From Candidatus Kerfeldbacteria bacterium (lineage in GTDB: Bacteria > Patescibacteriota > Patescibacteriia > SBBC01 > CAIJZX01), in contig CAVSWO010000002.1 of NCBI GenBank assembly GCA_963731735.1, forward strand, positions 470,001 to 534,000: a stretch of 64,000 nucleotides of DNA. The letters are read 5' to 3'. A program made the position numbers and the translations under genes. Under the pieces are notes generated by a model. That model made no database searches, had not been told where the DNA came from, and saw nothing but the letters and a program-made list of their open reading frames with translations. Below are positions 7,820 to 48,817 of this stretch, one piece after another; positions within the stretch are counted from its first letter, which is position 1, and every line of letters starts with the position of its first letter.

Positions 7820-9160
7820 ATGGATTCCTCGATTTTCAAGGCTTACGACATTCGCGGTACGGTACCGGAACAACTCAACGAGAAGATTGCCAACGATATC
7901 GGCCGCGCCTTTTCCGTTTTTCTCAAGGCCTCGTCGGTGATTGTCGGTCGCGATATGCGGCTGTCCGGTCCGGGTTTGTTTAAGGCGGTTACCGATGGTT
8001 TGATGCAACAGGGCACCGATGTGATTGATATCGGGATGGTCAGCACCGACCAGTTTTACTTTGCCTGCGCGCATTTGGGCCTGCCGGGCATGATGGTCAC
8101 TGCTTCGCATAATCCGCCCGAGTACAACGGGTTTAAAATGGTCCGCAAGATGCCGCAGCTGTTGAGCAAAGAAGAGGGCATTCAGTCATTGCATGATTTG
8201 ATTGCGGTTGGCGAATGGCCAACCCCGCAGAAGCGCGGCCAAAAACAAGAACGTGATATTCACGCCGCTTTCCTGCGACAAATCCTGTCGATGATTGATC
8301 TGCGGGTGATCCGGCCGATGAAGGTGATTGCGGATACCGCGAATGGCATGGTGGGGCCCGGACTCACGGCGCTCTTTCCCCGATTGCCAGAAATTTCGTT
8401 TACCGGCATGTACCTTGAACCAGACGGTTCGGTACCGAACCACGGACTCGACCCGCTGAAACCAGAAAATCGAGCCGAGCTCCAGGCGCGCGTGGTGAAG
8501 GAAAACTTTGCGATTGGATTTGCATTTGACGGAGATGGCGATCGATTTTTCGCGATCGATGATCGCGGACAGTTTGTGCCGGGTGATTTTATGACGGCGT
8601 TATTGGGCCAATACCTGCTCGAAAAAAACCCCGGCGCCAATATTATCTATGATGCGCGTGCTTCGTGGGCGGTGCCGGATTTAATCACCGCCGCCGGCGG
8701 TAAACCATTGATTGAGCGGGTCGGCCACACCTACATCAAGCGCCGCATGGCTGCCGAGAACGCGGTTTTCGGGGGTGAAGTCACCGGGCATTATTATTTT
8801 CGCGATTTCTTTTTCGCTGACTCAGGCATGATCCCCATGTTGCTGGTTTTGGAAATGCTCTCGGTCAAACAAAAGAAACTTTCTGAACTCCTTCAACCCC
8901 TCGAGCAGAAATATTTTATCTCCGGCGAAATTAATTCGAAAGTAGCTGGTGATCCAAAGCAGATCCTGAAAGCAATTGCGGAAAAATTCGCTGACGCAAA
9001 AATTGAACAGATTGACGGTGTTTCGGTAACCTATCCAGACTGGCACTGTAACGTCCGGACTTCAAACACCGAGCCGCTGGTTAGATTAAATCTCGAAGGC
9101 AAGACGCCGGAGCTGATGGCCCAGAAGCGTGATGAGGTGCTGGCAATGATTCGATCATAA
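7820..9160 (+). CDS. phosphomannomutase/phosphoglucomutase-family phosphohexomutase
   Basis: FKAYDIRG N-terminal motif and TASHNPPEYNGFK active-site serine loop. 446 aa. The substrate (Man, Glc or GlcN) cannot be told from the sequence. Confidence 0.8.
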   Translation: MDSSIFKAYDIRGTVPEQLNEKIANDIGRAFSVFLKASSVIVGRDMRLSGPGLFKAVTDGLMQQGTDVIDIGMVSTDQFYFACAHLGLPGMMVTASHNPPEYNGFKMVRKMPQLLSKEEGIQSLHDLIAVGEWPTPQKRGQKQERDIHAAFLRQILSMIDLRVIRPMKVIADTANGMVGPGLTALFPRLPEISFTGMYLEPDGSVPNHGLDPLKPENRAELQARVVKENFAIGFAFDGDGDRFFAIDDRGQFVPGDFMTALLGQYLLEKNPGANIIYDARASWAVPDLITAAGGKPLIERVGHTYIKRRMAAENAVFGGEVTGHYYFRDFFFADSGMIPMLLVLEMLSVKQKKLSELLQPLEQKYFISGEINSKVAGDPKQILKAIAEKFADAKIEQIDGVSVTYPDWHCNVRTSNTEPLVRLNLEGKTPELMAQKRDEVLAMIRS

Positions 9161-9186: not shown

Positions 9187-10617
9187 TTAGCTTGAACGAC
9201 CTTCGTGTTCTTTGGGTAGGAGCTGGTCAAGCGTGACGAAGGTGAAACCACGCTGGCGTAAATTTGCAATGATTACCGGGAGGGCCGTAATTGTGGATTG
9301 ACGGTTGCGAACCTGTCCTGCCGCGGGTCCATCCTGCACACCATCATGCAGTAAAATAATGCTCCCCGATCGAGTGTGATTCACGACCCGGTGGACAATA
9401 GTCGAAGCAGTTACCAATAAATAGTCCCGAGGATCGACAGACCAATCGACTAATCGCAGCTGTTGGTGATCAGCCTCGTAAAGTAATTGCGGACTGCGTA
9501 ATCCGTGCGGAGGTCGAAAATAAACCGGCTGGGTGCCAGTCACGCGGAAGATTTCTTGAGACGTGTTGCGTAAATCATCCGCAATATGACTGGGTGAAAA
9601 ATAGGGCAGACGAAACGAGTGGTTCCAAGAGTGGTTTCCAATTGAAAACCCGTGTGAAGTGACATATCGAGCGGTTGCTGGATCAGCTGCAATGCTCCGT
9701 CCGACTTCGAAAAATGTGGCGGGGACTTGCGCTTGATGTAATATGTCGACGATTTGACGGGTGGCCTGACCATTCGGACCGTCATCAAACGTCAGGGCTA
9801 CCAATTGTTTATCGTCATCACCACGTACCATGACTTGGCCGAAGTCAGTGGCGGTTGGCCACCAGCTGAGATAGGCGACGGTGATGAGCGTGAGCAGCGC
9901 CACGGTCCATCGTAACCGCCGCTGCGCCAACCGTTCTAACTCAGCGCGTGAGCGGCGAATGTTTCTGAACGACCAGAAGAGCGGCCGATGAAATACAACC
10001 ATCCAGACATGATTGAGCACGTACCGTGCACCCTGCGAGTACGGTTGGGCTTGAAAACGACGAGCGCTCGTGGTTACAATCATCCGTCGATCAAAAAGGA
10101 TTTCCCCATGTCGTTGGATGGCCCATCCAAAAGCGACATCACTGGCCAAATTGTATTCGGGGTTAAAGCCACCAACGGCGAGAGCGGTCTGACGCCGGAC
10201 AGCCATATTGCTGCCCAGTAAAATGCGCCGATAGAACCAACGCGACCATGATAGCAATCGCATGTTTTGGAATTGAATTGGCCCGGTGACGGCTAGAACT
10301 TTCGGATTTTGAAAGTCTTCAAGCAGGTGGTCTAACCAGTTAGGCGCAACAACCGAATCCGCGTCAGTAAAAGCCACCAATGCTGTGCTGACCGCCAGTA
10401 ATCCGCGTTGGAGAGCATACACGACACCCTGCCGAGGTTCTGAAATGACCGTCGCGCCAAACTTTCGGGCGATGGCGGCAGTCTGATCGGTCGAATTATT
10501 ATCAATCACATATATTTTGACACCAAGTCGCTTGGCCGGTAATTGCAAAGCACGCAAACAATGGGGAAGTAATTCTTCCTCGTTATATGCAGGGATTACA
10601 ACACTAAGTTGAGACAT
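9187..10617 (-). CDS. bifunctional family-2 glycosyltransferase / CE4 polysaccharide deacetylase (NodB-homology) fusion protein
   Basis: The N-terminus (VVIPAYNEEELL...IDNNSTDQT...FTDADS) is a GT-A/GT2 (DPM1/ArnC-like) domain. A predicted TM helix (WTVALLTLITVAYLSWW) follows. The C-terminus (LTFDDGPNG...NHSWNH...LLHDG) is a NodB/CE4 deacetylase domain. The ATG at 10617 (MSQLSVVIPAY) is preferred over the ORF-track start at 10647. Confidence 0.7.
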   Translation of the reverse strand: MSQLSVVIPAYNEEELLPHCLRALQLPAKRLGVKIYVIDNNSTDQTAAIARKFGATVISEPRQGVVYALQRGLLAVSTALVAFTDADSVVAPNWLDHLLEDFQNPKVLAVTGPIQFQNMRLLSWSRWFYRRILLGSNMAVRRQTALAVGGFNPEYNLASDVAFGWAIQRHGEILFDRRMIVTTSARRFQAQPYSQGARYVLNHVWMVVFHRPLFWSFRNIRRSRAELERLAQRRLRWTVALLTLITVAYLSWWPTATDFGQVMVRGDDDKQLVALTFDDGPNGQATRQIVDILHQAQVPATFFEVGRSIAADPATARYVTSHGFSIGNHSWNHSFRLPYFSPSHIADDLRNTSQEIFRVTGTQPVYFRPPHGLRSPQLLYEADHQQLRLVDWSVDPRDYLLVTASTIVHRVVNHTRSGSIILLHDGVQDGPAAGQVRNRQSTITALPVIIANLRQRGFTFVTLDQLLPKEHEGRSS

Positions 10618-10686
10618 ATGCACCGGGGGTAAGCACAAGACCCGCAAAACCTTATCTGATCAAACAATCAATCCTTGCCGGCCGGG

Positions 10687-18981: not shown

Positions 18982-19929
18982 GTGGCGGATGTCCGGTTGT
19001 CACGTATGATCTGTGAAAGGGCTGTCACCATCATTTCACATTTCCAGATGCATCTGGATGAAATCCTCGCGCTGTGGCTGATTGAGAAGTTCGCCACCCC
19101 GCGCTGGCTTACCCAGCACTGTGTGAATGATTCGATCATGCTCGGAGTCGGGCGTGGTGAGTTCGATGAACATCCCAGTGGGGCTGGTCACAAGAACTCG
19201 AAGGAGGATTGTTGCGCTACTCTGGTGGCCAAATCCCTCGGAGTCGCCGATCAGGGCGCCCTTCAGCAGATGTTGAAATTCGTTTTCAACGCCGATGTAA
19301 AGGGCGCCGGCCATCCCTATGACCTGTATAACTTGGTCAAAGCGATGAACCTGATGTGGACGGATGAGCAGGTTCGAGTCATTGACTGGACGTTTCAAGC
19401 GCTCGAAGTCAAGTATGCTGAGCAATTGGAATACGTGACTGCGGTCAGCGTTGTTCAGTCAGGTGACACACATATCCTGCTGACCCCGATGGGCGAAGTC
19501 AAAGTCCTGGTCGTTCATTCCGACAACACCATGATTGGGCGGGCAACTCGCTCTATGAGCAAAGAGCTCAAGCCCGATCTGCTTGTCATCAAGAACTCCA
19601 AACAGCAGGTTCAGGTCTTCAACTGTCAGCAACCACCTCGGCGTTTGAACCGAGTGGTGCGGTTCCTGCGGATTGCTGAGTTCCGCGAGAGCAAAACCAA
19701 CCTTACGGTTGGAGAAAGGGAGCTTCAGGGGCAGGAGTTCTGTGCCCAAGGAGACTGCTGGTACTACCAACCAGCCGGTGAAATGCTGTTGAACGGTAGC
19801 ATCACCAATCCGCATGTTCGCAAGACTCGTCTCAAGCTGGAAATGATTCTGGACTGTATCCGGCTCGGAATCCAGCCCACGCCGATGAGATCGAATGGTT
19901 CGACCACAGGGGTCACACCAACGGGCTAG
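18982..19929 (+). CDS. hypothetical protein; possible MYG1/UPF0160-family metal-dependent hydrolase (GTG start)
   Basis: The N-terminal block ISHFQMHLDEILALWLI...GVGRGEFDEHPSGAGH resembles the His/Asp metal-binding motifs of MYG1/UPF0160 (THxGxFHxDE...DVGG..D....DHH). The rest is unrecognised. 315 aa, between uvrC and uvrA. Confidence 0.4.
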   Translation: MADVRLSRMICERAVTIISHFQMHLDEILALWLIEKFATPRWLTQHCVNDSIMLGVGRGEFDEHPSGAGHKNSKEDCCATLVAKSLGVADQGALQQMLKFVFNADVKGAGHPYDLYNLVKAMNLMWTDEQVRVIDWTFQALEVKYAEQLEYVTAVSVVQSGDTHILLTPMGEVKVLVVHSDNTMIGRATRSMSKELKPDLLVIKNSKQQVQVFNCQQPPRRLNRVVRFLRIAEFRESKTNLTVGERELQGQEFCAQGDCWYYQPAGEMLLNGSITNPHVRKTRLKLEMILDCIRLGIQPTPMRSNGSTTGVTPTG

Positions 19930-30570: not shown

Positions 30571-31992
30571 ATGAGCAAAATAACACTTTCTATCATTATC
30601 GGTACTGTCATTGCCCTTGGTGGTGGAATTTGGTGGGTCATTGTATCACATACTCCCGCCACTCGGACGAGCAATAGCGTCAACGCAAAGATAAATCAAA
30701 ATGCCAATCCCGCGGCGGCCTATGTCTGCCCCTTTCCGGTGACTAATGCTCCCGAATTGGCGGCTAGTTATGGTGTCCCCGAGGGCTGGCAGGTTGAAAA
30801 GAGTAACGGCACGTTAGCGATTATGGAAGACGAGCGAAATCTGACTGCCGCTTTTGTTTATACTGCCAAACTCGAGAAAGATCTGTCGGCTGAAACATTT
30901 CTCAATCAATTCGGTAAAATTTTTGATACCGCAGTGACTGATGCTGGTGGCAGTTTTTCGCTTGGGCAAGTGACGGTTACGGGGAATACCGCTACCGCCT
31001 CAGCCCAAGCCTCTGTCAGTGAGGGAGATCTCCAAGGCGTATTTGCAACCTCGAAAGACCCAGGCTTTGTAACCTTTACTGCCTATTGGGCACCCGTGGA
31101 CACCTTTGCCGCCAAAGAAGCCACTCTACAAGACGTGGTACATTGCTACACGCGCAGCACCAGTTTAACCGACGCGCAGCTGACCGCGGCGGCTACTGCC
31201 AAGCAAGCTGCTGATCAGGAGAACACCGCCGCTGCGCAAGGTAGTAACCCTTGGGGGGCGTTCTCTGCTGGAAGTGATGGAGCATTCAGTTTTCAAGCCC
31301 CAGCCAGCTGGACCTCGAATGCAAATTCGGCCGGAGAATCAAGTGGGCTAGCGCTTGACGCCCCGGGAAGCGACGCATCGGTCGCTTTCCTATATAACCT
31401 TGGACGTTATGGCGCGGCTGATCCAGAAGAATTTGCTCGGACGACGATGGCGGTGACTTACGGAATTCAAGCGACCTTATCTAATCACCAGACGGTTGAT
31501 GGCGTGGACGTGTATGATTTTCACGGCACCTTCAGCGGGAAGGACGTCAATGGAGCGGTAGCCGTCCGAATTGAACCGTATCAAACCTTTTTCGCGCACT
31601 ATCTCGGCGTCATGATTGCCAATGCGGACAAATGGACAACTTATGCGCCGACCCTGAACCAAATCCAAGCTTCGATTCGATTGACCGACGCCGGACAGGA
31701 ACTGAGTAGTTTACCCGACATACCAAATTATGATTCGGCGGCGTTATTTGGCGAGAACGCTGGTGCCGGCTCATCCGTGACGTCCAGTCAGTCGTACAAA
31801 GACGCGGTTGATGATCAAGCCAGTCAAAATTGGGAAGACGCGATGCTCGGTTTTCAAACCATGGAATCACCATCCACCGGAGATCACTATGATGTGCCGC
31901 TGAACTCCTACAACCCCACCGGTCCCAATGGCGGCGGTTACTATCGGAAACTTCCGGGCGGTGGATTGGAACAACTGTCTCCAGTGCAATAA
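30571..31992 (+). CDS. hypothetical membrane-anchored extracellular protein (473 aa)
   Basis: N-terminal TM anchor (ITLSIIIGTVIALGGGIWWVIV), then a low-complexity Ala/Thr/Ser-rich ectodomain. No known domain. Confidence 0.5.
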   Translation: MSKITLSIIIGTVIALGGGIWWVIVSHTPATRTSNSVNAKINQNANPAAAYVCPFPVTNAPELAASYGVPEGWQVEKSNGTLAIMEDERNLTAAFVYTAKLEKDLSAETFLNQFGKIFDTAVTDAGGSFSLGQVTVTGNTATASAQASVSEGDLQGVFATSKDPGFVTFTAYWAPVDTFAAKEATLQDVVHCYTRSTSLTDAQLTAAATAKQAADQENTAAAQGSNPWGAFSAGSDGAFSFQAPASWTSNANSAGESSGLALDAPGSDASVAFLYNLGRYGAADPEEFARTTMAVTYGIQATLSNHQTVDGVDVYDFHGTFSGKDVNGAVAVRIEPYQTFFAHYLGVMIANADKWTTYAPTLNQIQASIRLTDAGQELSSLPDIPNYDSAALFGENAGAGSSVTSSQSYKDAVDDQASQNWEDAMLGFQTMESPSTGDHYDVPLNSYNPTGPNGGGYYRKLPGGGLEQLSPVQ

Positions 31993-38640: not shown

Positions 38641-39594
38641 TTACTTGCGGTAGTTGACCTTGAGGCTCCCCCAGGTCAGCTTTTCGGTGGGGGTGGTGGT
38701 TGATCCGAATACTTCGATTCGATGATTGTTACGGTCGGAAACGTACACGTCGCCATCCGGGCTGACTGCCACACCGAAGGGGTTGTCGAACTGTCCGGAA
38801 TCGTGTCCATACGATCCCCAGGCCGACATCCATTCACCGAACGCTGTGAATTGCTTGACCTGGTGACTCAGGCGGTCGGCCACCAGCCGGTCGCCAGTAG
38901 CATCAATCGCGATCCCGACCGGGTACGCAAGCTGCCAAATATCACCACCGGGCGTTCCCCAGGTAGCCAGCATACCGCCATCGGGATTGAAGGTTTGGAT
39001 CTGGCCGTTGCCCGTGTCCGAAATGGAAATGAGACCGCAGGCATCAATCGCAATCCCACAGGGAGATTGAAATTGGCCATCCATTGACCCCGAGCTCCCC
39101 CAGGCGAGCATGAATGCGCCGTCGGGCCCGAACTTCTGGATACGATGATTGCCGGTATCGGCCACATAGACGCAACCATCCGGTCCGACTGCAATACCGT
39201 ACGGATTGTCGAACTGACCTGGGCAAGATCCGAAAGTGCCCCAGGCGTGGATCAGCACGCCATCAAGCGTGTAAACCAGCACATGGGCCAGCGAAGCATC
39301 GACCACATACAGTCGATCGTTGCCAACAGCCAGCCCGATGGGAGCGGATAATTCGCGTCCGCTCCACCCGGCCATATACTCGCCCGAAGTCGTGAACTTC
39401 TGAATGCGTCGATTGCCAGTGTCGGAGACGTAGATGTTTCCCTGCGGATCGGTGGCGACACCAGTTGGATGGTTGAACTGCCCGGCACCGCAGCCAAGCG
39501 AACCCCAGATGAACCGAAATTTGGCTGCATTGACCGGGGTCGACTGCAGACAAAGCAGCATGATGAACAAGAAGAGCGCCTGCGCATAACGCAT
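38641..39594 (-). CDS. secreted NHL-repeat (six-bladed beta-propeller) protein
   Basis: Signal peptide MRYAQALFLFIMLLCLQSTPVNA. Six repeats of the NHL pattern (GQFNHPTGVATDPQGNIYVSDTGNRRIQKF ... GQFDNPFGVAVSPDGDVYVSDRNNHRIEVF). Confidence 0.8.
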   Translation of the reverse strand: MRYAQALFLFIMLLCLQSTPVNAAKFRFIWGSLGCGAGQFNHPTGVATDPQGNIYVSDTGNRRIQKFTTSGEYMAGWSGRELSAPIGLAVGNDRLYVVDASLAHVLVYTLDGVLIHAWGTFGSCPGQFDNPYGIAVGPDGCVYVADTGNHRIQKFGPDGAFMLAWGSSGSMDGQFQSPCGIAIDACGLISISDTGNGQIQTFNPDGGMLATWGTPGGDIWQLAYPVGIAIDATGDRLVADRLSHQVKQFTAFGEWMSAWGSYGHDSGQFDNPFGVAVSPDGDVYVSDRNNHRIEVFGSTTTPTEKLTWGSLKVNYRK

Positions 39595-40419: not shown

Positions 40420-40953
40420 ATGAAACCCTTTGTGCCTGAACCCGCGCGACGATGGATCGGTCTTGGCCTGTTCCTGATTGGTATGGTTGCAACGGTTATC
40501 GCGCTGCAAATACCGGCGCTCTCGCAAGCAATCAAGGATCTTGAACATGCCGGATACTTTGGCGCCATCGTGGTTGGCATCATGTACGCGATCAGCCTAA
40601 CCTCGGCTACGGCCACCCTGGTATTCGCGCAAATTCCGGACTCACTCAATCCGATTATGATCGCGGTGGCCGGCGGATTTGGCGCCATGTTATACGACAT
40701 CAGTATTTTTTCATTGACCCGACGAACCAGTTTTCGTGAACGGGTTGCTCACTGGTCCGAAGCACTCACTCACCACGAAAAGTTACCGCGCTGGTTAAGC
40801 ATCACCATCGGAGCAATTATTATCGCCTCCCCGTTACCGGATGAACTCGGGGCCACCTTTTTCGGGACGAGCAACCTCCCATTCCGGCCATTTTTGGCAC
40901 TCTCATTCTCCCTGAATGTGGCCGGCATATTATTTGTAACCGGAGTGTTTTGA
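40420..40953 (+). CDS. hypothetical integral membrane protein
   Basis: 177 aa with about 5 TM helices. No recognisable domain. Its stop overlaps the next gene. Confidence 0.4.
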   Translation: MKPFVPEPARRWIGLGLFLIGMVATVIALQIPALSQAIKDLEHAGYFGAIVVGIMYAISLTSATATLVFAQIPDSLNPIMIAVAGGFGAMLYDISIFSLTRRTSFRERVAHWSEALTHHEKLPRWLSITIGAIIIASPLPDELGATFFGTSNLPFRPFLALSFSLNVAGILFVTGVF

Positions 40954-42326
40954 GTCGGAGCCGCACAACCGTAAAAAACTTTCGGACTAAGCTGCAGAAT
41001 CGCGCGCAGCGCATCTTAAAGGAAAACTGGGTGCAACTTGATGGCCAACGTGGCTTTACCCGGCCGGCGCATTTATATCCGTACCAGTGGAACTGGGACT
41101 CGGGGTTTATTGCCTACGGGTACGCGCATGTACACCCGCAACGGGCGATTCAGGAGTTACGGAGTTTACTTGACGGACAATGGACCAACGGCTTCCTGCC
41201 GCATATTATTTTTCATCGGGTCAAGGGAGAACATCGCCCCTATTTCCCCGGCCCGACGTTTTGGGAATCCCGAAAAACGAACCGGGCCGCGCCGGCGGCG
41301 GTGGCCACCTCTGGTTTGACGCAGCCGCCGATGGTAACCTTGGCCGTCTGGCACACGTATCACGCGCTGCACCGCCGCCAGCCGCAGGCGGCTCGCCGGA
41401 TGCTTCAGGAATTTTTTCCGAAGCTGCTCGCCCTGCACACATTTTTGTACACGGCCCGTGATCCGGAAAAGAGCGGGCTGCTGACCATCGCCCATCCTTG
41501 GGAATCAGGGTTTGATAATTCCCCGCGTTGGGACGCGGTGCTCAAGCGCATCCGGCCGCGGCGCGTGCCGGTCTACCACCGGCACGATCGTCAGCAAGCC
41601 GATCGGGGACACCGGCCAACTGATCAAATCTACGATCGGTTTGTTGATCTGGCCTTGCGCTTAAAACGCTCGGGGTACCCGGGCCGGATCCCGGCCAGCC
41701 ATCCGTTTCGAATTAAGGACAAAGTTTTTTCATCGATCGGATACCTGGGCAACCTGCACTTACAGCAAATGGCAATAGTGCTGGGCCAGCCCCACCAGGC
41801 AATTACCGGCTGGATAAAACGCTTTGAAGGCTCGCTGTTCAAACAACTTTGGAATCCAGATACACAAACCTTTAGTGATTACGATCTGGTTCGACGTCGT
41901 CGACTACCACCAAAAACGGTGGCCGGGCTGTTGCCGTTAATGACCGGATTATTACCCAGCCGGCAAGTCGAACGGATGATCAGAATTTTGCACCAGGCGA
42001 ATTTTTGTGGGCAAAAAGCCTGTGCCGTTTCCTTGACACCAACCGTTGGGATTTATCAGAAAGAGTTTAACCCGGAGATGTATTGGCGGGGTCCAATTTG
42101 GGTGAATATCAACTGGTTTTTGTGGCGGGCTTTGCGGCTGTATGGATTGCACGAACAAGCCCGTCATCAAGCCGCGCATATTACCCATCTCATCGCGCAT
42201 CAAGGTTTTTGGGAATATTATTCACCCACCACGGGTCAGGGACTCGGCGCCAAACATTTTTCCTGGACCGCCGCACTGGCAACAGATCTGCTCCATACGC
42301 ATCGTCAATCCACCAACAAATTGTGA
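40950..42326 (+). CDS. (alpha/alpha)6-barrel glycoside hydrolase, GH63/GH37/GDE_C-like (glucosyl- or mannosyl-glycerate hydrolase-like)
   Basis: LYPYQWNWDSGFIAYGYA resembles the GH63 (F.WDEGF) and GH37 (YYWDSY) signature loops. 458 aa. The WESGFDNSPRWD acidic block also fits this clan. Confidence 0.5.
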   Translation: MSRSRTTVKNFRTKLQNRAQRILKENWVQLDGQRGFTRPAHLYPYQWNWDSGFIAYGYAHVHPQRAIQELRSLLDGQWTNGFLPHIIFHRVKGEHRPYFPGPTFWESRKTNRAAPAAVATSGLTQPPMVTLAVWHTYHALHRRQPQAARRMLQEFFPKLLALHTFLYTARDPEKSGLLTIAHPWESGFDNSPRWDAVLKRIRPRRVPVYHRHDRQQADRGHRPTDQIYDRFVDLALRLKRSGYPGRIPASHPFRIKDKVFSSIGYLGNLHLQQMAIVLGQPHQAITGWIKRFEGSLFKQLWNPDTQTFSDYDLVRRRRLPPKTVAGLLPLMTGLLPSRQVERMIRILHQANFCGQKACAVSLTPTVGIYQKEFNPEMYWRGPIWVNINWFLWRALRLYGLHEQARHQAAHITHLIAHQGFWEYYSPTTGQGLGAKHFSWTAALATDLLHTHRQSTNKL

Positions 42327-42335
42327 TATACTTAT

Positions 42336-43575
42336 GGTGATGCATTATTCGCGCTACACGGCCGCCATCTTCCTGGTCACCCTGATAATTTTTGGGTCTT
42401 CAATTCAAACTGCGCGGACCGCGACCGTGGCCGAACGAACCGCCGGCCGGATTTTACTGCAGGTCGAACGTAATGGCGAAGCTTGGTACGTGTATCCGAA
42501 AACCTTAACTCGTTTTTATCTCGGACGGCCGAAAGACGCATTTGACGTGATGCGTTTTCAGGGCCTCGGTATCACCAATGCAAATTTAGCAAAAATTCCA
42601 GTTGCTGGAAGTTCCGATTCGGGCGACCAGGCTTTGCGCGATCGTTTAGCCGGGTATATTTTACTCCAGGTCGAACGGAACGGTGAGGCGTGGTATGTCT
42701 ATCCGGTTACGAAGCAGCGCTATTTCCTCGGGTATCCGGAGGACGCCTGGAACTTGATGCGTAATTTGGGCTTAGGCATCTCGAACAGCGATTTGGCCCA
42801 AATTCCGGTTGATAATGGCGTTCGGGTTGAACATCAAGGCGTGGTGTCCTCACGCGGGACGTATACAGTTGACTACCTGACGTTTGATCGGAAAAACCCG
42901 GAATTAAAAATCACCACGGATACAGGCAATGACGGTAACTGCGCATCGAATTGCACGGTCCTTAGCCTGGGTTCCTACGTGACGCGGCGAAATGCCTTAG
43001 CCGGTATTCATGGCACTTATTTCTGTCCGGCCGATTACAGCAGTTGTTCGAGCGAGGTCAACCATTACTTTTTTCCGGTCTTTAACAGTTATAGCCGAGT
43101 CTTCATCAATGGCGACCGCATCAAATATACCGCCGAACCAATGGTGGCCTTTGATTCATCCAATCATCCATTCTTCTTCCGCCAGACCAAGCAGTTTACC
43201 AGCGAGCAAGATTTCTATAATGACTTTGCGAACGTATCAATCGCGGCCGGTGGGAATGGACAACTTCGCGCAGCCATCAGCAACGGACCGGCACTGATTG
43301 ACAACGGACAAAATGTGGTCGGACAGTATGCGTTGGATTCAAAACAATCCAGCGTTAAATCATATCGCGGCGCCTTGGGCTGGAAAGGCGATACAATTTA
43401 TCTGTTGGTCGTCAGCGGTGCAACCGTCACCGATTCAGCGGCCGTGATGGAGGCTCTTGGACTCGACTACGCGATTAATCTCGACGGTGGTGGCTCAACC
43501 GCGCTTTACCAAGCCGGACGGTATATCATTGGTCCTGGCCGGAATTTACCAAATGCCGTCCTCCTCTCCCAGTAA
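42336..43575 (+). CDS. secreted protein: two copies of a novel repeat module fused to a phosphodiester-glycosidase (NAGPA/DUF2233-like) domain
   Basis: Signal anchor MVMHYSRYTAAIFLVTLIIFG. Repeats RILLQVERNGEAWYVYPKTLTRFYLGRPKDAFDVMRFQGLGITNANLAKIP and YILLQVERNGEAWYVYPVTKQRYFLGYPEDAWNLMRNLGLGISNSDLAQIP. The C-terminal block DYAINLDGGGSTALYQAGRYIIGPGRNLPNA matches the PF09992 core. Confidence 0.6.
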
Positions 43576-45451: not shown

Positions 45452-46933
45452 ATGAGGCTTTCACTCGTTGCAGCTAAAATCCTACCAAGTCGCGGCGCGA
45501 TTGCGGTTGGTATTTTTTCTGATCAACGGGCAGACGCGCTCAAGCGCTTACCGAGCGGTATGCGAAAACTGGCCAAGGCCGCGATCAGTGCGAAGTCGTT
45601 TGGCGGCTGGATGTCGACCTCGGTGATTCATGTTCCGGGAAAATCGCAACCGGGCATGGTGTTATTTGGGCTTGGGAAATCGAGCGATTGGAATATGCGA
45701 CGGGTGCGACTGGTCGCACGAGCCGCGGCCCGAACCGCTTTGGCACAAGGCTGGACCGGGTTGGCGGTGGACATTGAACCGATGATCGGAAAACTTGATG
45801 CCAACCACGTAACCCAACACGTAACTGAAGGGTTGCTGATGGGCGGATATGAGTATCATGGCCTTCGTAAATCACCCAAGCATGGTTGGCCGGAGATTTC
45901 CCGCGCGACGTTGCTGGCAGCCACGGTAACGCCGGACATGCGGGCGGCGGTGAAAACCGGCCGCCAGATCGCTGAGGCCACCAACCAAGCGCGCACCCTG
46001 GCCAATATGCCGGGTAGCCACATGACACCGACGGTCTTGGCCCAGGCGGCACGCCAGGTGGCCAAGCAGCACAAATTAGCCATCACGGTTCTGCATCGGA
46101 AACAGATGGAAAAACTTGGTTTGGGTGCGGTGCTGGGTGTGGCCAAGGGCAGCACCGAGGAACCGAAATTTATGGTGCTTGAATATTATGGAACGAAAAA
46201 ATCGGTGGCCCCAATTGCCCTGGTTGGCAAAGGCGTTACTTTTGATACGGGCGGCATAAATTTGAAACCCAGCCAAGGCATGGCCGACATGCATATGGAT
46301 ATGGCCGGCGGCGGGGCGGTGCTCCATGCCATCGGCGCGATGGCCGCGCTCAAACTCCCAGTCAACGTGGTAGCGATCATCCCCTCGGTTGAAAATATGC
46401 CAAGTGGTTCAAGCTATCGGCCGGGCGATTTACTGAAATCCTTATCCGGGCAGATTATTGAGGTCGGGGATACCGATGCCGAAGGCCGGGTCATCCTGGC
46501 GGATGGGATAGCCTACGCCAAAAAGTTTTTCAATCCATCGTTGATCGTTGACGTGGCGACACTGACCGGTGCGGCCTTGGTCGCGCTTGGCCAACGGGCG
46601 ATGGCCACCTTTACCAACCGAACAGCGATGGAGGAGCAATCGAAGCGAATCGGCGAGGCCAGCGGCGACTACGCCTGGCCGTTACCGGCTTGGGAGGAAT
46701 ATGATAGCGAAGTTCGCGGCAACTTGGGTGATTGGATGAATGTCGGCAAAGGACGCTGGGGCGGCGCGATTCATGGGGCGGTCTTCTTGAAGCAATTTGC
46801 CAACCCAACGCCCTGGATTCATTTAGACATCGCGCCGACCATGACGTCGATCGAAGGCGATCAATTAGCCAAGGGCGCGACCGGAACCGGCGTGCGTTGG
46901 TTAGTGGAATTTGTGAAGCAGCAGGTGCCATGA
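45452..46933 (+). CDS. pepA: M17 leucyl aminopeptidase
   Basis: GKGVTFDTGGINLKP and the NTDAEGR motif (VGDTDAEGRVILADGIAYA). 493 aa. Confidence 0.9.
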   Translation: MRLSLVAAKILPSRGAIAVGIFSDQRADALKRLPSGMRKLAKAAISAKSFGGWMSTSVIHVPGKSQPGMVLFGLGKSSDWNMRRVRLVARAAARTALAQGWTGLAVDIEPMIGKLDANHVTQHVTEGLLMGGYEYHGLRKSPKHGWPEISRATLLAATVTPDMRAAVKTGRQIAEATNQARTLANMPGSHMTPTVLAQAARQVAKQHKLAITVLHRKQMEKLGLGAVLGVAKGSTEEPKFMVLEYYGTKKSVAPIALVGKGVTFDTGGINLKPSQGMADMHMDMAGGGAVLHAIGAMAALKLPVNVVAIIPSVENMPSGSSYRPGDLLKSLSGQIIEVGDTDAEGRVILADGIAYAKKFFNPSLIVDVATLTGAALVALGQRAMATFTNRTAMEEQSKRIGEASGDYAWPLPAWEEYDSEVRGNLGDWMNVGKGRWGGAIHGAVFLKQFANPTPWIHLDIAPTMTSIEGDQLAKGATGTGVRWLVEFVKQQVP

Positions 46934-47742
46934 GCGGGCGCGGTTGGCTGATTACATTTGGCATCCTGGCAGTGCTTGGCATTGGCAGCTGGACGCTGAC
47001 CAAAACCGATCGCTATCAACAATGGCTGGCTGAACAGCAGAAGTCCGGATTACCGAACCCGGAATCGATTGCCGAGTCGATCGCCGCTCCGGCCGTCAAC
47101 GCGGTCGCCAATCGGCAAGCAAGCACTACCAACGCAGTCACCGAGATTCCGGCCGAGAAAAATATCGCCGTGCCGTTTACCGTCCAGGCACCAAACGCGA
47201 ATTGGGATCAGGATCATAACGAGTTTTGTGAAGAAGCCTCGGTGCTGATGGTTGGACGGTTTTTTCAAAAGCGACCAATTGTTGATGCGACCGATGCTGA
47301 AGCTGGTTTACAGCAACTCAAACAATGGGAACTCGATAATTTTGGCTACTATTACGATACGACCGCCGCCGAAACCGCTCAAATCCTGGAGGACGTGTAC
47401 GGACTGACGGTGGAACTGAAAACGAACCCGAGCGTAACCGATATCAAACAGGCTTTAGCCGATAATTCCCTGGTCATCGCGCCGTTTGCCGGTCGTGATC
47501 TTGGGAATCCGTATTACACCCCGCCCGGTCCGGTCTATCACATGATGGTTTTTCGTGGCTACACCCGAGACGGAAAATTCATCATGAATGATCCCGGCAC
47601 GCGTCATGGCGAAGAGTATGTTTACGATCAATCGAAACTGCTGGAGGTCATGCACGACTGGGTGCCGAAAACGCCGCGCACAATCCCCGGGAATGGTTCG
47701 CCGACGGGAAATCCGGTGGTGTTAATTGTTTCCCAAGCTTGA
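46930..47742 (+). CDS. membrane-anchored YvpB/Peptidase_C39_2-like cysteine peptidase domain protein
   Basis: TM anchor WLITFGILAVLGIGSW. The block VPFTVQAPNANWDQDHNEFCEEASVLMV...YHMMVFRGYTRDGKFIMNDPGTRHG matches the C39-like Cys...His(-Asp/Asn) arrangement. Its start overlaps the pepA stop. Confidence 0.55.
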   Translation: MSGRGWLITFGILAVLGIGSWTLTKTDRYQQWLAEQQKSGLPNPESIAESIAAPAVNAVANRQASTTNAVTEIPAEKNIAVPFTVQAPNANWDQDHNEFCEEASVLMVGRFFQKRPIVDATDAEAGLQQLKQWELDNFGYYYDTTAAETAQILEDVYGLTVELKTNPSVTDIKQALADNSLVIAPFAGRDLGNPYYTPPGPVYHMMVFRGYTRDGKFIMNDPGTRHGEEYVYDQSKLLEVMHDWVPKTPRTIPGNGSPTGNPVVLIVSQA

Positions 47743-47776
47743 GTTTTTCCCGTGATTGTGCTATACTCACAACACG

Positions 47777-48817
47777 ATGCAAATTCATCGCACAGGTAAG
47801 TGGGGCGCGGCCCCATTTTTGTTGTTCGCGGTAACGCTTTGGTGGTTCGCGCCGAGTCGCGTGCATGCCAATGTGAGCAACACCGTACGCGGCATGATTG
47901 TGCTTGAAGTTGAACGCAACGGCGAAGCCTGGTACATCGATCCGATGTCCTTACACCGCGTGTTTCTTGGTCGTCCGCAGGATGCCTGGGAAATTATGCG
48001 CCAACACGGACTTGGTATTTCCAATGCCGATCTCGCAAAAATTCCGCCGGCCGGGAGTTCCGCCAGTGGAGACTATGCGCTCCGCCAACGGCTGGCCGGA
48101 CGGATTGTGTTGCAAGTTGAACGGAATGGCGAAGCCTGGTATGTCTATCCAAAAGATTTAAAACGCTATTACCTTGGTCGGCCGTATGATGCCTTTCAGG
48201 TTATGACCCGCCTCGGCTTAGGCATAACTGAACAGGATTTGTACCAAATAATTTCCGAACGTAATCTACCGGTCCCGTTTACTGCCCAGGCGCCGTATGG
48301 CGTTTGGGATTTTGACCATGACAATTTTTGTGAAGAAGCTTCGTCGCTGATGGTTGCGCGGTATGTTCGCAACCAAGGTATCAACGGTCCTGCCGATGCC
48401 GATTCGGCCATGTACGCGCTTAAAGATTGGGAAGTTGCGACCCTCGGCTATCATAAAGATACGGGCGCGGATGATACGGCTCGCATGATGCGTGAAAACT
48501 ATAACCTGACCGTTACGGTCATCGACAATCCAACCGCCACCTCGATTCGCCAACAACTTGATCTCGGCCATGTCTTCGTAGCCCCGGTCGCCGGTACCTT
48601 GCTCGGAAACCCGTACTTTAGCGGTCTGGGCCCGCCCTACCACATGTTTGTCATCAAAGGCTATACCAACGACGGCTGGTTCATCACCAATGAACCGGGT
48701 ACCCGGCATGGGGCGGACTACACGTATCGGCAATCCACCGTCATGAACGCCTTGCACGATTATAACGGGGGTAATACGTTGAACGGTCCTCGCCGGATCC
48801 TGGAAATCAGTCCTTAA
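47777..48817 (+). CDS. secreted protein: two copies of the same novel repeat module fused to a YvpB/Peptidase_C39_2-like domain
   Basis: Signal peptide ...WWFAPSRVHA. Repeats MIVLEVERNGEAWYIDPMSLHRVFLGRPQDAWEIMRQHGLGISNADLAKIP and RIVLQVERNGEAWYVYPKDLKRYYLGRPYDAFQVMTRLGLGITEQDL. The C-terminus PVPFTAQAPYGVWDFDHDNFCEEASSLMV...YHMFVIKGYTNDGWFITNEPGTRHG is paralogous to 46930..47742. Confidence 0.55.
   Translation: MQIHRTGKWGAAPFLLFAVTLWWFAPSRVHANVSNTVRGMIVLEVERNGEAWYIDPMSLHRVFLGRPQDAWEIMRQHGLGISNADLAKIPPAGSSASGDYALRQRLAGRIVLQVERNGEAWYVYPKDLKRYYLGRPYDAFQVMTRLGLGITEQDLYQIISERNLPVPFTAQAPYGVWDFDHDNFCEEASSLMVARYVRNQGINGPADADSAMYALKDWEVATLGYHKDTGADDTARMMRENYNLTVTVIDNPTATSIRQQLDLGHVFVAPVAGTLLGNPYFSGLGPPYHMFVIKGYTNDGWFITNEPGTRHGADYTYRQSTVMNALHDYNGGNTLNGPRRILEISP

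What the first reader, a model, noticed from the sequence alone, without database searches (positions are those of the whole stretch)
9187..10617. Single polypeptide fusing a GT2 glycosyltransferase to a CE4 (NodB-type) deacetylase across a TM helix
The N-terminal 230 aa is a small DPM1/ArnC-like GT-A domain (VVIPAYNEE, DNNSTDQT, TDADS). These are typically polyprenyl-phosphate sugar transferases. After one TM segment comes a NodB-homology domain with the canonical FDDGP / HSWNH / LLHDG metal and catalytic motifs. The pairing mirrors ArnC+ArnD: an Und-P-sugar is made, then de-N-acylated on the lipid carrier. It also mirrors NodC+NodB, but fused into one gene. This predicts a lipid-linked amino sugar (for example Und-P-GlcN) used for cell-envelope modification. 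A phosphohexomutase gene lies convergently next door.
Basis: partly seen in the sequence, partly recalled or inferred. Interest (0 to 1): 0.55.

Follow-up and report, generated by a model that had tools for sequence, protein, structure and literature searches.

The report
Fused membrane glycosyltransferase–deacetylase, likely amino-sugar lipid
One gene of a tiny-genome (CPR/Patescibacteria) bacterium fuses a sugar-adding enzyme facing the cell interior, through a single membrane helix, to a sugar-deacetylating enzyme facing outward; it most likely builds an amino-sugar-bearing membrane lipid, and it belongs to a widespread family I found no experimental study of.

Summary
Window 9187-10617 (minus strand) is one uninterrupted 476-aa ORF. 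It holds a GT2 domain (Pfam 1.5e-24), one conserved TM helix (about residues 236-257) and a CE4/NodB domain (1.6e-27) with all five catalytic motifs invariant in 43 homologs. Charge bias and split-gene relatives place GT2 inside and CE4 outside. At least 2007 database clusters match, and most listed hits share the architecture; I found no characterised member.

The clearest functional clues are lipid-flippase links. Three relatives carry an N-terminal MprF-type flippase domain (two of them the full flippase-GT2-TM-CE4). DedA-family genes lie just downstream in two clades only 33-37% identical.

Best model (inferred, about 0.45): GT2 puts HexNAc on a membrane lipid inside, a separate flippase moves it, and the tethered CE4 de-N-acetylates it outside. 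This is a GT2-based, fused analogue of HexSDF and GpgSDF. The lipid and sugar are unresolved; Und-P-HexN remains a live rival. The adjacent PMM/PGM is lineage synteny, not a conserved partner.

The parts
9187..10617 (-). Complete CDS (476 aa from ATG 10617; stop TAA 9187-9189) encoding GT2 - TM - CE4
   Evidence: identical database protein P0001
10063..10617 (-). GT2 (GT-A fold) catalytic core, residues 1-185, predicted cytoplasmic
10354..10368 (-). TDADS: DxD metal/nucleotide-sugar motif (D85, D87 invariant)
10135..10146 (-). ASDV: D160 (at least 90% conserved) at the N-terminus of helix 159-168. Position corresponds to the catalytic-base Asp of the 'TED' motif of cellulose-synthase-like GT2s (inference)
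10054..10071 (-). TSARRF: family motif TSxRR[F/W] at the start of the interface helix (T183, S184, R186 invariant). Positional analogue of Q/RxxRW (inference)
9919..10062 (-). Interface/juxtamembrane helices, residues 186-233 (helices 186-190, 192-209, start of 224-252). Conserved N202, P212, F217, R221. Includes the stretch with the highest hydrophobic moment in the protein (205-233)
9847..9912 (-). Single transmembrane helix, residues about 236-257, orientation N-in/C-out
   Evidence: hydropathy and positive-inside bias conserved in the family
9838..9858 (-). TM-exit junction motif P-x-[ST]-x-x-[FY]-G (PTATDFG, residues 254-260), 13 residues before ALTFDDGP. Shared with stand-alone CE4 proteins
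9217..9804 (-). CE4 / NodB-homology deacetylase domain, residues 272-467, predicted extracytoplasmic and tethered about 15 residues from the membrane
   Evidence: Pfam PF01522 E 1.6e-27; PDB 7y51/7fbw E 2e-37, Foldseek TM 0.95
9775..9792 (-). CE4 motif 1 TFDDGP (D278 catalytic base, D279 metal ligand; invariant)
9619..9633 (-). CE4 motif 2 HSWNH (H329, H333 metal ligands; invariant)
9502..9516 (-). CE4 motif 3 RPPHG (R368, P370, G372 invariant)
9421..9447 (-). CE4 motif 4 DWSVDPRDY (W392 invariant)
9340..9354 (-). CE4 motif 5 LLHDG (H424 catalytic acid, D425; invariant)

Best explanation
The gene encodes a bitopic, bifunctional membrane enzyme that makes an amino-sugar-bearing membrane lipid in three steps.

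(1) INFERRED: on the cytoplasmic face, the non-processive, cellulose-synthase-like GT2 domain, docked on the membrane by its amphipathic interface helices, transfers an N-acetyl-hexosamine (probably GlcNAc from UDP-GlcNAc) to a hydroxyl of a membrane lipid. The acceptor could be phosphatidylglycerol, diacylglycerol or a glycolipid; its identity is unresolved.

(2) INFERRED: the lipid-HexNAc is moved to the outer leaflet by a separate flippase. In some relatives this is an MprF-type domain fused to the same protein, or a DedA-family protein encoded next door. No such gene lies in this 64-kb window.

(3) INFERRED from intact motifs and topology: the CE4 domain, held about 15 residues above the outer membrane surface by the single TM helix, removes the N-acetyl group. 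This leaves a protonatable amine, that is a cationic or zwitterionic aminoglycolipid that changes surface charge.

SHOWN here: the fusion, domain identities, conservation of catalytic residues, the conserved single TM with positive-inside bias, the fold relationships, and the flippase associations in relatives.

NOT shown: any enzymatic activity, the donor sugar, the acceptor lipid, or the topology by experiment.
For: Architecture and conservation. All CE4 motifs and the GT2 motifs DxD, D160 and TSxRR are invariant or nearly so in 43 homologs of 32-59% identity.

Topology: a single conserved TM with 3-8 K/R before and 0-3 after. In split-gene relatives L152 and L178, the CE4 protein begins directly with a hydrophobic signal-anchor followed by the same SxxFG-x13-ALTFDDGP junction, while the GT protein keeps the interface helices.

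Lipid link: P0054 and P0072 (830 and 824 aa) are MprF-flippase-domain - GT2 - TM - CE4 triple fusions. Their N-terminal domains match NCBIfam bifunc_MprF positions 5-296 (E 9e-41 and 4e-41), and P0054's also matches solved MprF 6lvf/7duw (E 3e-18). P0123 (partial) is a third example of the flippase domain fused to the GT2. A DedA/VTT gene (PF09335 above its cut-off) lies just downstream on the same strand in about 17 loci of one clade. It also does so, with 0-nt gap or overlap, in a second clade (L137, L110) that is only 33-37% identical to the first.

Precedents: HexSDF (PMC10128005) and GpgSDF (PMC12713373) make HexN-glycolipid and GlcN-PG with a GT, a deacetylase and an MprF-like flippase. 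An archaeal GT + polysaccharide deacetylase + COG0392 flippase neighbourhood is also described (PMC5898192).
Against: There is no biochemical evidence. No flippase-type gene (MprF-like or DedA-like) lies in the window, nor next to the gene in the 11 individually inspected relatives' contexts outside those clades.

The triple fusion was seen in only three proteins; the two that carry a source name are both Chitinispirillaceae. Much of the DedA association could be synteny by descent within one clade.

MprF-like (COG0392) domains are also fused to the Dol-P-sugar GT2 AglD (PMC5898192). DedA proteins include Und-P flippases, and the neighbour's only NCBIfam hits are weak matches to UptA. So the flippase links do not separate glycerolipid from polyprenyl carriers.

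CE4 substrate specificity cannot be read from sequence. The closest CE4 relatives are acetylxylan esterase and peptidoglycan deacetylases. The junction motif is shared with many stand-alone CE4 proteins of unknown, possibly peptidoglycan-directed, function.

From general knowledge, CPR bacteria are thought to scavenge lipids, so which acceptor lipids are available is unknown.
Confidence: 0.45

Rival explanations
1. The GT2 domain is a polyprenyl-phosphate HexNAc transferase that makes Und-P-GlcNAc or Und-P-GalNAc inside. After flipping, the CE4 converts it to Und-P-HexN. A GT-C enzyme encoded elsewhere then uses this as a donor to decorate a wall polymer, lipoglycan or protein. From memory, Bordetella LgmABC, Francisella FlmF2/NaxD/FlmK and the mycobacterial PpgS pathway work this way.
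For: It is a small GT2 followed by interface helices and a TM helix, as in DPMS, GtrB and ArnC, which are detectable homologs. The DedA-family neighbours in two clades have weak UptA (Und-P transporter) matches as their only NCBIfam hits. DedA proteins are documented Und-P flippases (PMC12893004, PMC10127716). COG0392 flippase domains are fused to the Dol-P-sugar GT2 AglD (PMC5898192).
Confidence: 0.2
2. The GT2 adds a terminal HexNAc to a lipid-linked oligosaccharide or cell-wall precursor on the cytoplasmic face (an Und-PP-linked glycan, as PcManGT-type enzymes do). After export by the pathway's own flippase, the tethered CE4 trims that residue before or during transfer to the wall or S-layer.
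Against: The gene is not embedded in polysaccharide, O-antigen or S-layer glycan clusters in any context examined; it is usually alone. This model does not explain the fusion to an MprF-type phospholipid flippase domain.
Confidence: 0.12
3. It is a minimal synthase-deacetylase for a secreted, partly de-N-acetylated GlcNAc polymer or oligomer (PNAG- or chitosan-like), that is a reduced version of MatB, PgaC+PgaB, IcaA+IcaB or NodC+NodB.
For: The GT core has a cellulose-synthase-like fold and motif pattern. BcsA and HAS align over 206-235 residues. PgaC and NodC give weak NCBIfam hits. MatB of Streptomyces is a known GT2/CE4 fusion with cytoplasmic GT and extracellular CE4 (bioRxiv 10.1101/089920).
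Against: There is only one TM helix in the whole family, so no translocation channel, whereas to my knowledge PgaC, BcsA and HAS need several TM helices. In MatB the domain order is reversed (CE4 1-342, GT2 354-734), and its GT2 domain was modelled on BcsA. The QxxRW Q is replaced (TSxRR). No PgaD/IcaD/IcaC-type partners were seen. A cytoplasmic oligomer could not reach an external CE4.
Confidence: 0.1
4. The two domains act on unrelated substrates. The CE4 is an ordinary membrane-anchored peptidoglycan (or other wall glycan) deacetylase that happens to use the C-terminal TM of a cytoplasmic GT2 as its anchor.
For: 89 of 120 loci sharing the junction motif encode stand-alone CE4 proteins, 45 of 57 complete ones with a TM segment ahead of the CE4 motif. 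Close stand-alone CE4 relatives in Peptostreptococcaceae sit next to lspA and rluD with no GT. The best NCBIfam CE4 hits are PdaB, NodB and PgdA.
Against: The fusion persists across at least four named phyla at 30-59% identity. It recurs as adjacent GT2 + CE4 gene pairs with 0-18 nt gaps. It has further acquired flippase domains or neighbours. This pattern is typical of sequential steps in one pathway.
Confidence: 0.08

Closest known systems
HexSDF of Clostridioides difficile (aminohexosyl-hexosyl-diradylglycerol synthesis; PMC10128005)
   Same: Same proposed logic: a GT adds N-acetyl-hexosamine to a membrane lipid, a polysaccharide-deacetylase-type enzyme removes the acetyl group, and an MprF-like flippase is associated. 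The authors' model places deacetylation on the outer leaflet. The product is a cationic glycolipid affecting daptomycin and bacitracin resistance.
   Different: HexS is an MGDG-synthase/MurG-like enzyme, not GT2. The three functions are separate genes in an operon with a two-component regulator. Here GT2 and CE4 are one polypeptide and no flippase or regulator gene is adjacent.
GpgSDF of Pseudomonas aeruginosa (glucosaminyl-phosphatidylglycerol; PMC12713373)
   Same: GT + deacetylase + COG0392 flippase convert PG to GlcNAc-PG and then GlcN-PG, i.e. amino-sugar modification of a membrane lipid.
   Different: GpgS is GT4 and GpgD is COG3233. Both are predicted cytoplasmic without TM helices, so deacetylation precedes flipping. 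Here the deacetylase is CE4 and predicted to lie outside.
MatB of Streptomyces (PNAG synthase/deacetylase; bioRxiv 10.1101/089920)
   Same: A single polypeptide combining an intracellular GT2 and an extracellular CE4 across the membrane.
   Different: The order is reversed (CE4 residues 1-342, GT2 354-734). Its GT2 is a PgaC/BcsA-like synthase domain that makes a polymer. The window protein has a 230-aa non-processive-type GT2 and one TM.
ArnC/ArnD, and the polyprenyl-P-HexNAc pathways LgmA/LgmC, FlmF2/NaxD and PpgS (my own knowledge)
   Same: A GT2 makes a lipid-linked N-acylated amino sugar that is then de-N-acylated on the carrier.
   Different: The GT domain here is not specifically ArnC/DPMS-like. 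As I recall, ArnD acts on the cytoplasmic face and NaxD/LgmC are YdjC-family rather than CE4. Those systems also need a GT-C transferase, and none was seen near any family member.
PcManGT (PDB 6yv7), 'minimal cellulose-synthase-like' membrane GT2
   Different: An archaeal mannosyltransferase with no deacetylase domain. Its TM count and C-terminal topology differ.
MprF (bifunctional Lys-PG synthase/flippase)
   Same: In relatives P0054 and P0072 the same type of flippase domain is fused to a lipid-modifying catalytic module whose product lowers membrane negative charge.
   Different: The window protein lacks the flippase domain. The catalytic module is GT2+CE4 instead of an aminoacyl-PG synthase.

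Membership tests
CAZy GT2 / Pfam PF00535 (inverting GT-A glycosyltransferases) | Significant match to the family model above the curated cut-off | tested here: met
   PF00535 87.2 bits against cut-off 23.3, residues 5-128
CAZy GT2 / Pfam PF00535 (inverting GT-A glycosyltransferases) | GT-A fold with a DxD metal-binding motif | tested here: met
Polyprenyl-phosphate GT2 class (DPM1/DPMS, GtrB, ArnC, PpgS) | Full-length similarity to family models, including the acceptor half, at family cut-off | tested here: not met
   NCBIfam ArnC 22.4 bits (cut-off 529) over residues 3-103; PpgS 19.8 (370); Dol-P-hexose transferase 33.3 (375). PDB profile alignments stop at residue 113-143
Polyprenyl-phosphate GT2 class (DPM1/DPMS, GtrB, ArnC, PpgS) | Closest structural neighbours are DPMS, GtrB or ArnC | tested here: not met
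Polyprenyl-phosphate GT2 class (DPM1/DPMS, GtrB, ArnC, PpgS) | Transfers sugar to polyprenyl phosphate | not testable with these tools
   Requires an in vitro assay with C55-P or Dol-P
CE4 / NodB-homology deacetylases (PF01522) | Match above the curated cut-off and a (beta/alpha) barrel CE4 fold | tested here: met
   96.3 bits against 23.1; Foldseek TM 0.95 and rmsd 1.2 A to 7fbw
CE4 / NodB-homology deacetylases (PF01522) | Five catalytic motifs: TFDDG (Asp-Asp), H-x3-H metal ligands, RxPxG, D..W, LxH | tested here: met
   D278, D279, H329, H333, R368, P370, G372, W392, H424 and D425 are invariant in 43 homologs
Processive PNAG/cellulose/chitin-type synthases (PgaC, IcaA, BcsA, NodC, MatB GT2 domain) | Multiple TM helices forming a translocation channel | tested here: not met
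   A single hydrophobic segment per protein across the family
Processive PNAG/cellulose/chitin-type synthases (PgaC, IcaA, BcsA, NodC, MatB GT2 domain) | Canonical Q(Q/R)xRW motif, and family model at cut-off | tested here: not met
   The motif is TSxRR[F/W]. PgaC_IcaA 38.9 bits (cut-off 422) and NodC 20.8 (550)
HexSDF / GpgSDF-type aminoglycolipid systems | Homologous GT (MGDG-synthase-like HexS, or GT4 GpgS) | tested here: not met
   The GT here is GT2, whereas HexS and GpgS are reported as MGDG-synthase-like and GT4 (PMC10128005, PMC12713373). The resemblance is therefore functional, not membership.
HexSDF / GpgSDF-type aminoglycolipid systems | Associated MprF-like (COG0392) flippase | tested here: inconclusive
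   Absent from the window and from most contexts. Present as a fused N-terminal domain in relatives P0054, P0072 and P0123.
HexSDF / GpgSDF-type aminoglycolipid systems | Produces a HexN-modified membrane lipid | not testable with these tools
   Needs lipidomics

The most novel reading that the evidence does not exclude
This family is a third, GT2-based and fused, evolutionary solution for putting a free amine on the membrane surface. In lipid-auxotrophic CPR/Patescibacteria it would convert scavenged host-derived anionic lipids (for example PG) into zwitterionic or cationic glucosaminyl lipids. The single-TM fusion might also oligomerise so that synthesis, translocation and trimming are coupled in one complex. 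That would explain why most genomes show no dedicated flippase gene next to it.
Probability: 0.12. Interest if true: 0.7.

Novelty: new variant of a known kind. Interest (0 to 1): 0.45.

Why it matters
Amino-sugar decoration of membrane lipids has only recently been tied to genes: GlcN-PG in P. aeruginosa (2025) and the HexN-glycolipid of C. difficile (2023). In C. difficile it affects resistance to cationic antibiotics.

If this family does the same chemistry, it would show that the 'glycosylate inside, flip, deacetylate outside' route has been invented with a third glycosyltransferase fold and compressed into one gene. The family has at least 2007 database clusters and is seen in Patescibacteria, Chloroflexota/Dehalococcoidales, Omnitrophota and Chitinispirillaceae.

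It would also give a concrete, testable handle on how ultra-small CPR cells, which are thought not to make their own lipids, tailor their envelope charge.

If instead the product is Und-P-HexN, it would supply a missing deacetylase type for carrier-linked amino-sugar pathways.

Either way the prediction can be tested directly by heterologous expression plus lipidomics.

Tried and rejected
1. The genome-contig scan with the full alignment keyed on the generic CE4 motif [VI]ALTFDDGP. It returned almost only stand-alone CE4 genes; only L003 and L004 were fusions. It was therefore of little use for taxonomy or context.

2. Cluster-member look-up gave almost no names. The organism was placed with GroEL instead.

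3. I tested whether the Peptostreptococcaceae CE4 hits L024 and L025 are HexD-like. They lie next to lspA and rluD, with no GT or flippase. Rejected.

4. I searched the window and all loci for MprF-flippase, DedA-like and YkoP-like genes, with phmmer and with HMMs I built. None is in the window.

5. A homolog search with the P0054 flippase domain found only 2 proteins, so the true spread of the triple fusion is unknown.

7. I looked for a conserved operon partner across 11 individually inspected contexts and 47 clustered loci. None is family-wide. DedA and YkoP are clade-restricted.

8. PMM/PGM as a functional partner: it is a generic PMM/PGM, not bacterial GlmM, and it is syntenic only in close relatives. 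Rejected as evidence.

9. Horizontal-transfer island: GC is uniform at about 52-55% and the flanks are housekeeping genes. Rejected.

10. Literature searches for this exact GT2-TM-CE4 architecture found no characterised member. IgtG (PMC11912497) and MatB are different architectures.
Full report
OBSERVATION. Window 9187-10617 is a single open reading frame on the minus strand. It runs from ATG at 10615-10617 to stop TAA at 9187-9189, 476 aa, with no internal stop. Alternative upstream TTG starts at 10638 and 10647 would add 7-10 residues. The identical database protein P0001 is 483 aa.

Pfam finds Glycos_transf_2 at residues 5-128 (E 1.5e-24), with Glyco_transf_21 (66-185) and Glyco_trans_2_3 (81-254) extending the match. 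It finds Polysacc_deac_1 at 266-388 (E 1.6e-27). The convergent neighbour at 7820-9160 is a phosphohexomutase.

ORGANISM AND SETTING. The window is a run of housekeeping genes: FolD, GlyA, Lgt, PMM/PGM, TrpRS, RNase J, UvrC, UvrA, GroEL, PpdK, DnaG, RpoD, SufBD and others. GC is uniform at about 52-55%, so the gene is native and not on an island.

GroEL is 84-85% identical to Candidatus Kerfeldbacteria proteins, and all named top hits are Patescibacteria. The source contig is 822,872 bp. The host is therefore a CPR bacterium with a very small genome.

THE FAMILY. A word-indexed search returned 2007 clusters with E below 1e-5. Most of the 120 listed are 475-545 aa with both Pfam domains and 97-100% query coverage, at 32-59% identity. 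Named sources include Dehalococcoidales, Chitinispirillaceae, Omnitrophota and Chloroflexi.

In an alignment of 43 members, the CE4 residues D278, D279, H329, H333, R368, P370, G372, W392, H424 and D425 are invariant. So are the GT2 residues P9, E13, N40, D44, D85, A86, D87, G171, S184 and R186. D160, R187, N202 and R221 are at least 90% conserved. Both domains are thus under selection as active enzymes. Annotations in the sources are generic ('PgdA/CDA1 deacetylase / GT2'). Literature searches found no characterised member with this architecture.

TOPOLOGY. One hydrophobic segment (about 236-257 here) is present at the same alignment position in nearly every member. It has 3-8 Lys/Arg in the 15 residues before it and 0-3 after it. 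There is no N-terminal signal sequence. By the positive-inside rule the GT2 is cytoplasmic and the CE4 extracytoplasmic.

Independent support comes from relatives in which the two halves are separate adjacent genes (L120, L152, L178; 0-18 nt apart). In L152 and L178 the CE4 protein begins directly with a hydrophobic signal-anchor, followed by the same P/S-x-x-F-G-x13-ALTFDDGP junction. The GT protein keeps the interface helices, and in L152 it has its own TM. In L120 the hydropathy scan found no TM segment in the CE4 ORF.

The CE4 barrel starts only about 15 residues after the TM, so its active site is held at the membrane surface. AlphaFold models are confident: full length pLDDT 92.7, GT part pLDDT 92.2 with pTM 0.87. 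They show the GT-A core, then helices 186-190 and 192-209, a conserved aromatic/basic loop, and a long helix 224-252 that contains the TM. The stretch 205-233 has the highest hydrophobic moment in the protein, as expected for an interfacial element.

WHAT KIND OF GT2. No NCBIfam model reaches its cut-off. The best hit is TIGR04283 (an uncharacterised mftF-like GT2; 1.8e-22 over residues 4-194). ArnC, PpgS and Dol-P-hexose transferases match only the first 70-100 residues, at E 2e-8 to 4e-4.

A profile of the GT half against all PDB sequences aligns through the acceptor half (to residue 170-177) with chondroitin polymerase K4CP, PcManGT (6yv7), a Leptospira GT2, WrtF and heparosan synthase. It aligns to residue 221 with BcsA. 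With DPMS, ArnC and GtrB it aligns only to residue 113-143.

Several features match the D,D,D,(Q/R)xxRW layout, which to my knowledge is found in cellulose-synthase-like and GT21 lipid glycosyltransferases. These are the invariant DxD, the conserved Asp160 at the N-terminus of a helix, and the TSxRR[F/W] motif at the start of the interface helix. This motif comparison is my inference from the model's secondary structure and from general knowledge, not a residue-level alignment shown by a tool.

With a single TM helix the protein cannot form the multi-helix channel of a polymer synthase. I therefore read the GT2 as a non-processive, membrane-interface enzyme. It more likely glycosylates a hydroxyl of a lipid or lipid-linked acceptor than a polyprenyl phosphate.

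WHAT KIND OF CE4. The domain superposes on CE4 esterases and deacetylases: 7fbw TM 0.95 and 39% identity, plus Bc1960, PdaC and SpPgdA. The best NCBIfam similarities are PdaB, NodB and PgdA, all far below cut-off. Substrate cannot be deduced from this.

A metagenome scan for the junction motif returned 120 loci. Of these, 29 carry the fusion and 89 carry stand-alone CE4 proteins, most of roughly 240-300 aa. In 45 of 57 complete ones, a TM segment precedes the CE4 motif. So the C-terminal half of the fusion corresponds to a widespread family of membrane-anchored CE4 enzymes.

FUNCTIONAL LINKS FROM RELATIVES.

(i) Flippase fusion. P0054 (830 aa, Chitinispirillaceae) and P0072 (824 aa) have an extra N-terminal domain of about 320 aa. 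It matches NCBIfam bifunc_MprF positions 5-296 at E 9e-41 and 4e-41. P0054's domain also matches solved MprF structures (6lvf/7duw residues 30-325) at E 3e-18. This is the flippase domain of MprF. P0123 is a third, partial example. The hydropathy pattern is compatible with the eight helices of that domain. That would keep the following GT2 cytoplasmic and, after one more TM, the CE4 outside.

(ii) DedA neighbours. Clustering the neighbours of 47 fusion-bearing loci showed a DedA/VTT-domain membrane protein (PF09335, 34.7 bits against cut-off 33.9) on the same strand just downstream. It occurs in about 17 loci of a ~540-aa clade. It also occurs in a second clade (L137 with zero gap, L110 overlapping) whose fusion proteins are only 33-37% identical to the first. 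DedA proteins are documented lipid flippases or scramblases for Und-P and PE (PMC12893004, PMC10127716, PMC10193950).

(iii) YkoP neighbour. A YkoP-domain protein (PF22790, 2e-30; function unknown) is convergent 35 nt downstream in the first clade only.

(iv) Everything else. Elsewhere the gene stands alone in unrelated neighbourhoods. Neither the window nor most loci contain any of these partners.

PRECEDENTS. C. difficile HexSDF makes an aminohexosyl glycolipid with a GT, a polysaccharide deacetylase and an MprF-like flippase. The authors' model has flipping followed by outer-leaflet deacetylation (PMC10128005). P. aeruginosa GpgSDF makes GlcN-PG via GlcNAc-PG, with a GT4, a COG3233 deacetylase and a COG0392 flippase (PMC12713373). 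Makarova et al. noted an archaeal neighbourhood of a COG0392 flippase, a polysaccharide deacetylase and a glycosyltransferase. They also noted fusion of that flippase family to the Dol-P-sugar GT2 AglD (PMC5898192). Streptomyces MatB is a CE4-TM-GT2 PNAG synthase with the opposite domain order (bioRxiv 10.1101/089920).

MOST LIKELY MECHANISM (inferred; confidence about 0.45). The cytoplasmic GT2 transfers HexNAc, probably GlcNAc, onto a membrane lipid. A separate flippase moves the product outward. The tethered CE4 removes the acetyl group, giving an amino-sugar lipid that reduces net negative surface charge.

The flippase evidence does not exclude it, since DedA/UptA and the AglD fusions both involve polyprenyl carriers. 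However, the GT2 comparisons disfavour it, and no GT-C partner was seen.

Lesser rivals are:
- modification of a lipid-linked glycan precursor (about 0.12);
- a minimal PNAG- or chitosan-like synthase (about 0.1), disfavoured by the single TM;
- two unrelated activities sharing an anchor (about 0.08), disfavoured by the persistence of the fusion, the split adjacent gene pairs and the flippase acquisitions.

COMPARISON AND NOVELTY. The protein is a bona fide GT2 and a bona fide CE4. It fails the tested criteria for the DPM1/ArnC class and for processive synthases. It is an analogue of HexSDF and GpgSDF, not a homologue. I classify it as a new variant of a known kind: a fused, GT2-based version of the GT/deacetylase(/flippase) amino-sugar-lipid module, widespread in uncultivated phyla, with no characterised member found.

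The PMM/PGM neighbour (closest to NF007088 PMM/PGM at 455 bits; bacterial GlmM only 169 bits) reflects synteny among close relatives and is not evidence of function.

LIMITS. Nothing here demonstrates activity, donor, acceptor or topology experimentally. The triple fusion and the DedA link come from relatives only 29-37% identical to the window protein. The motif analogy to QxxRW/TED is positional. The family-size figure comes from a capped, word-indexed search.

Noticed in passing
L102, L127, L129, L134, L136, L138, L153, L162, L165, L173, L177, L181, L182, L184, L190 (e.g. L165:9961-10539): A YkoP-domain protein (PF22790, E 2e-30; about 193 aa; no NCBIfam or PDB match, function unknown) lies convergent, exactly 34-35 nt downstream of the fusion gene. 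This holds throughout one clade that appears Dehalococcoidia-like (reductive-dehalogenase-like genes nearby, judged by eye and not annotated). It could be a further component of the pathway.
   Followed up: partly
L091-L210 (89 loci, e.g. L152:611-1333, L178:791-1507): There is a large family of stand-alone CE4 proteins, most of roughly 240-300 aa, with the same juxtamembrane motif P/S-x-x-[FY]-G-x13-ALTFDDGP as the fusion. 45 of 57 complete ones have a TM segment ahead of the CE4 motif. Their substrates are unknown, and a few are immediately preceded by a GT2 gene (split versions).
   Followed up: partly
L083:2104-4760, and the P0038 context: About 4-8 kb upstream of the fusion gene in one lineage lies a cluster of a GT21-like GT2 (385 aa), a methyltransferase, a CE4+DUF3473 deacetylase and a B12-binding radical-SAM enzyme, next to Lnt. 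From memory it is reminiscent of hopanoid hpnI/J/K-type or other aminolipid tailoring clusters.
   Followed up: no
P0021 context: A fatty-acid desaturase gene (PF00487) sits 81 nt upstream on the same strand as a 50%-identical homolog, and an unannotated 535-aa gene lies 32 nt downstream. This is an anecdotal link to membrane-lipid metabolism.
   Followed up: no
window 46732-48817: Two tandem paralogous Peptidase_C39_2-domain genes (336 and 353 aa) follow a leucyl aminopeptidase (M17) gene.
   Followed up: no
window 18982-19929 and 30571-31992: Two sizeable ORFs (315 and 473 aa) have no Pfam match at E <= 1e-5. The first is conserved next to uvrC in the close relative L001 (an unannotated 315-aa gene).
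   Followed up: no
window 40950-43575: An MGH1-like/GH63 glycoside hydrolase ORF (40950-42326) overlaps by about 185 nt the start of an ORF with a NAGPA phosphodiester-glycosidase domain (42142-43575). The true start of the second gene is probably further downstream.
   Followed up: no
window 56631-58133 and 38641-39594: Two probable surface or secreted proteins: a CAP (cysteine-rich secretory protein) domain fused to bacterial Ig-like domains, and an NHL-repeat beta-propeller protein. Both may be relevant to an episymbiotic lifestyle.
   Followed up: no
L199:2858-4903: One fusion homolog appears as a 682-aa ORF, about 150-200 aa longer than typical. I did not check whether this is a real extra domain or an over-extended start in high-GC DNA.
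   Followed up: no
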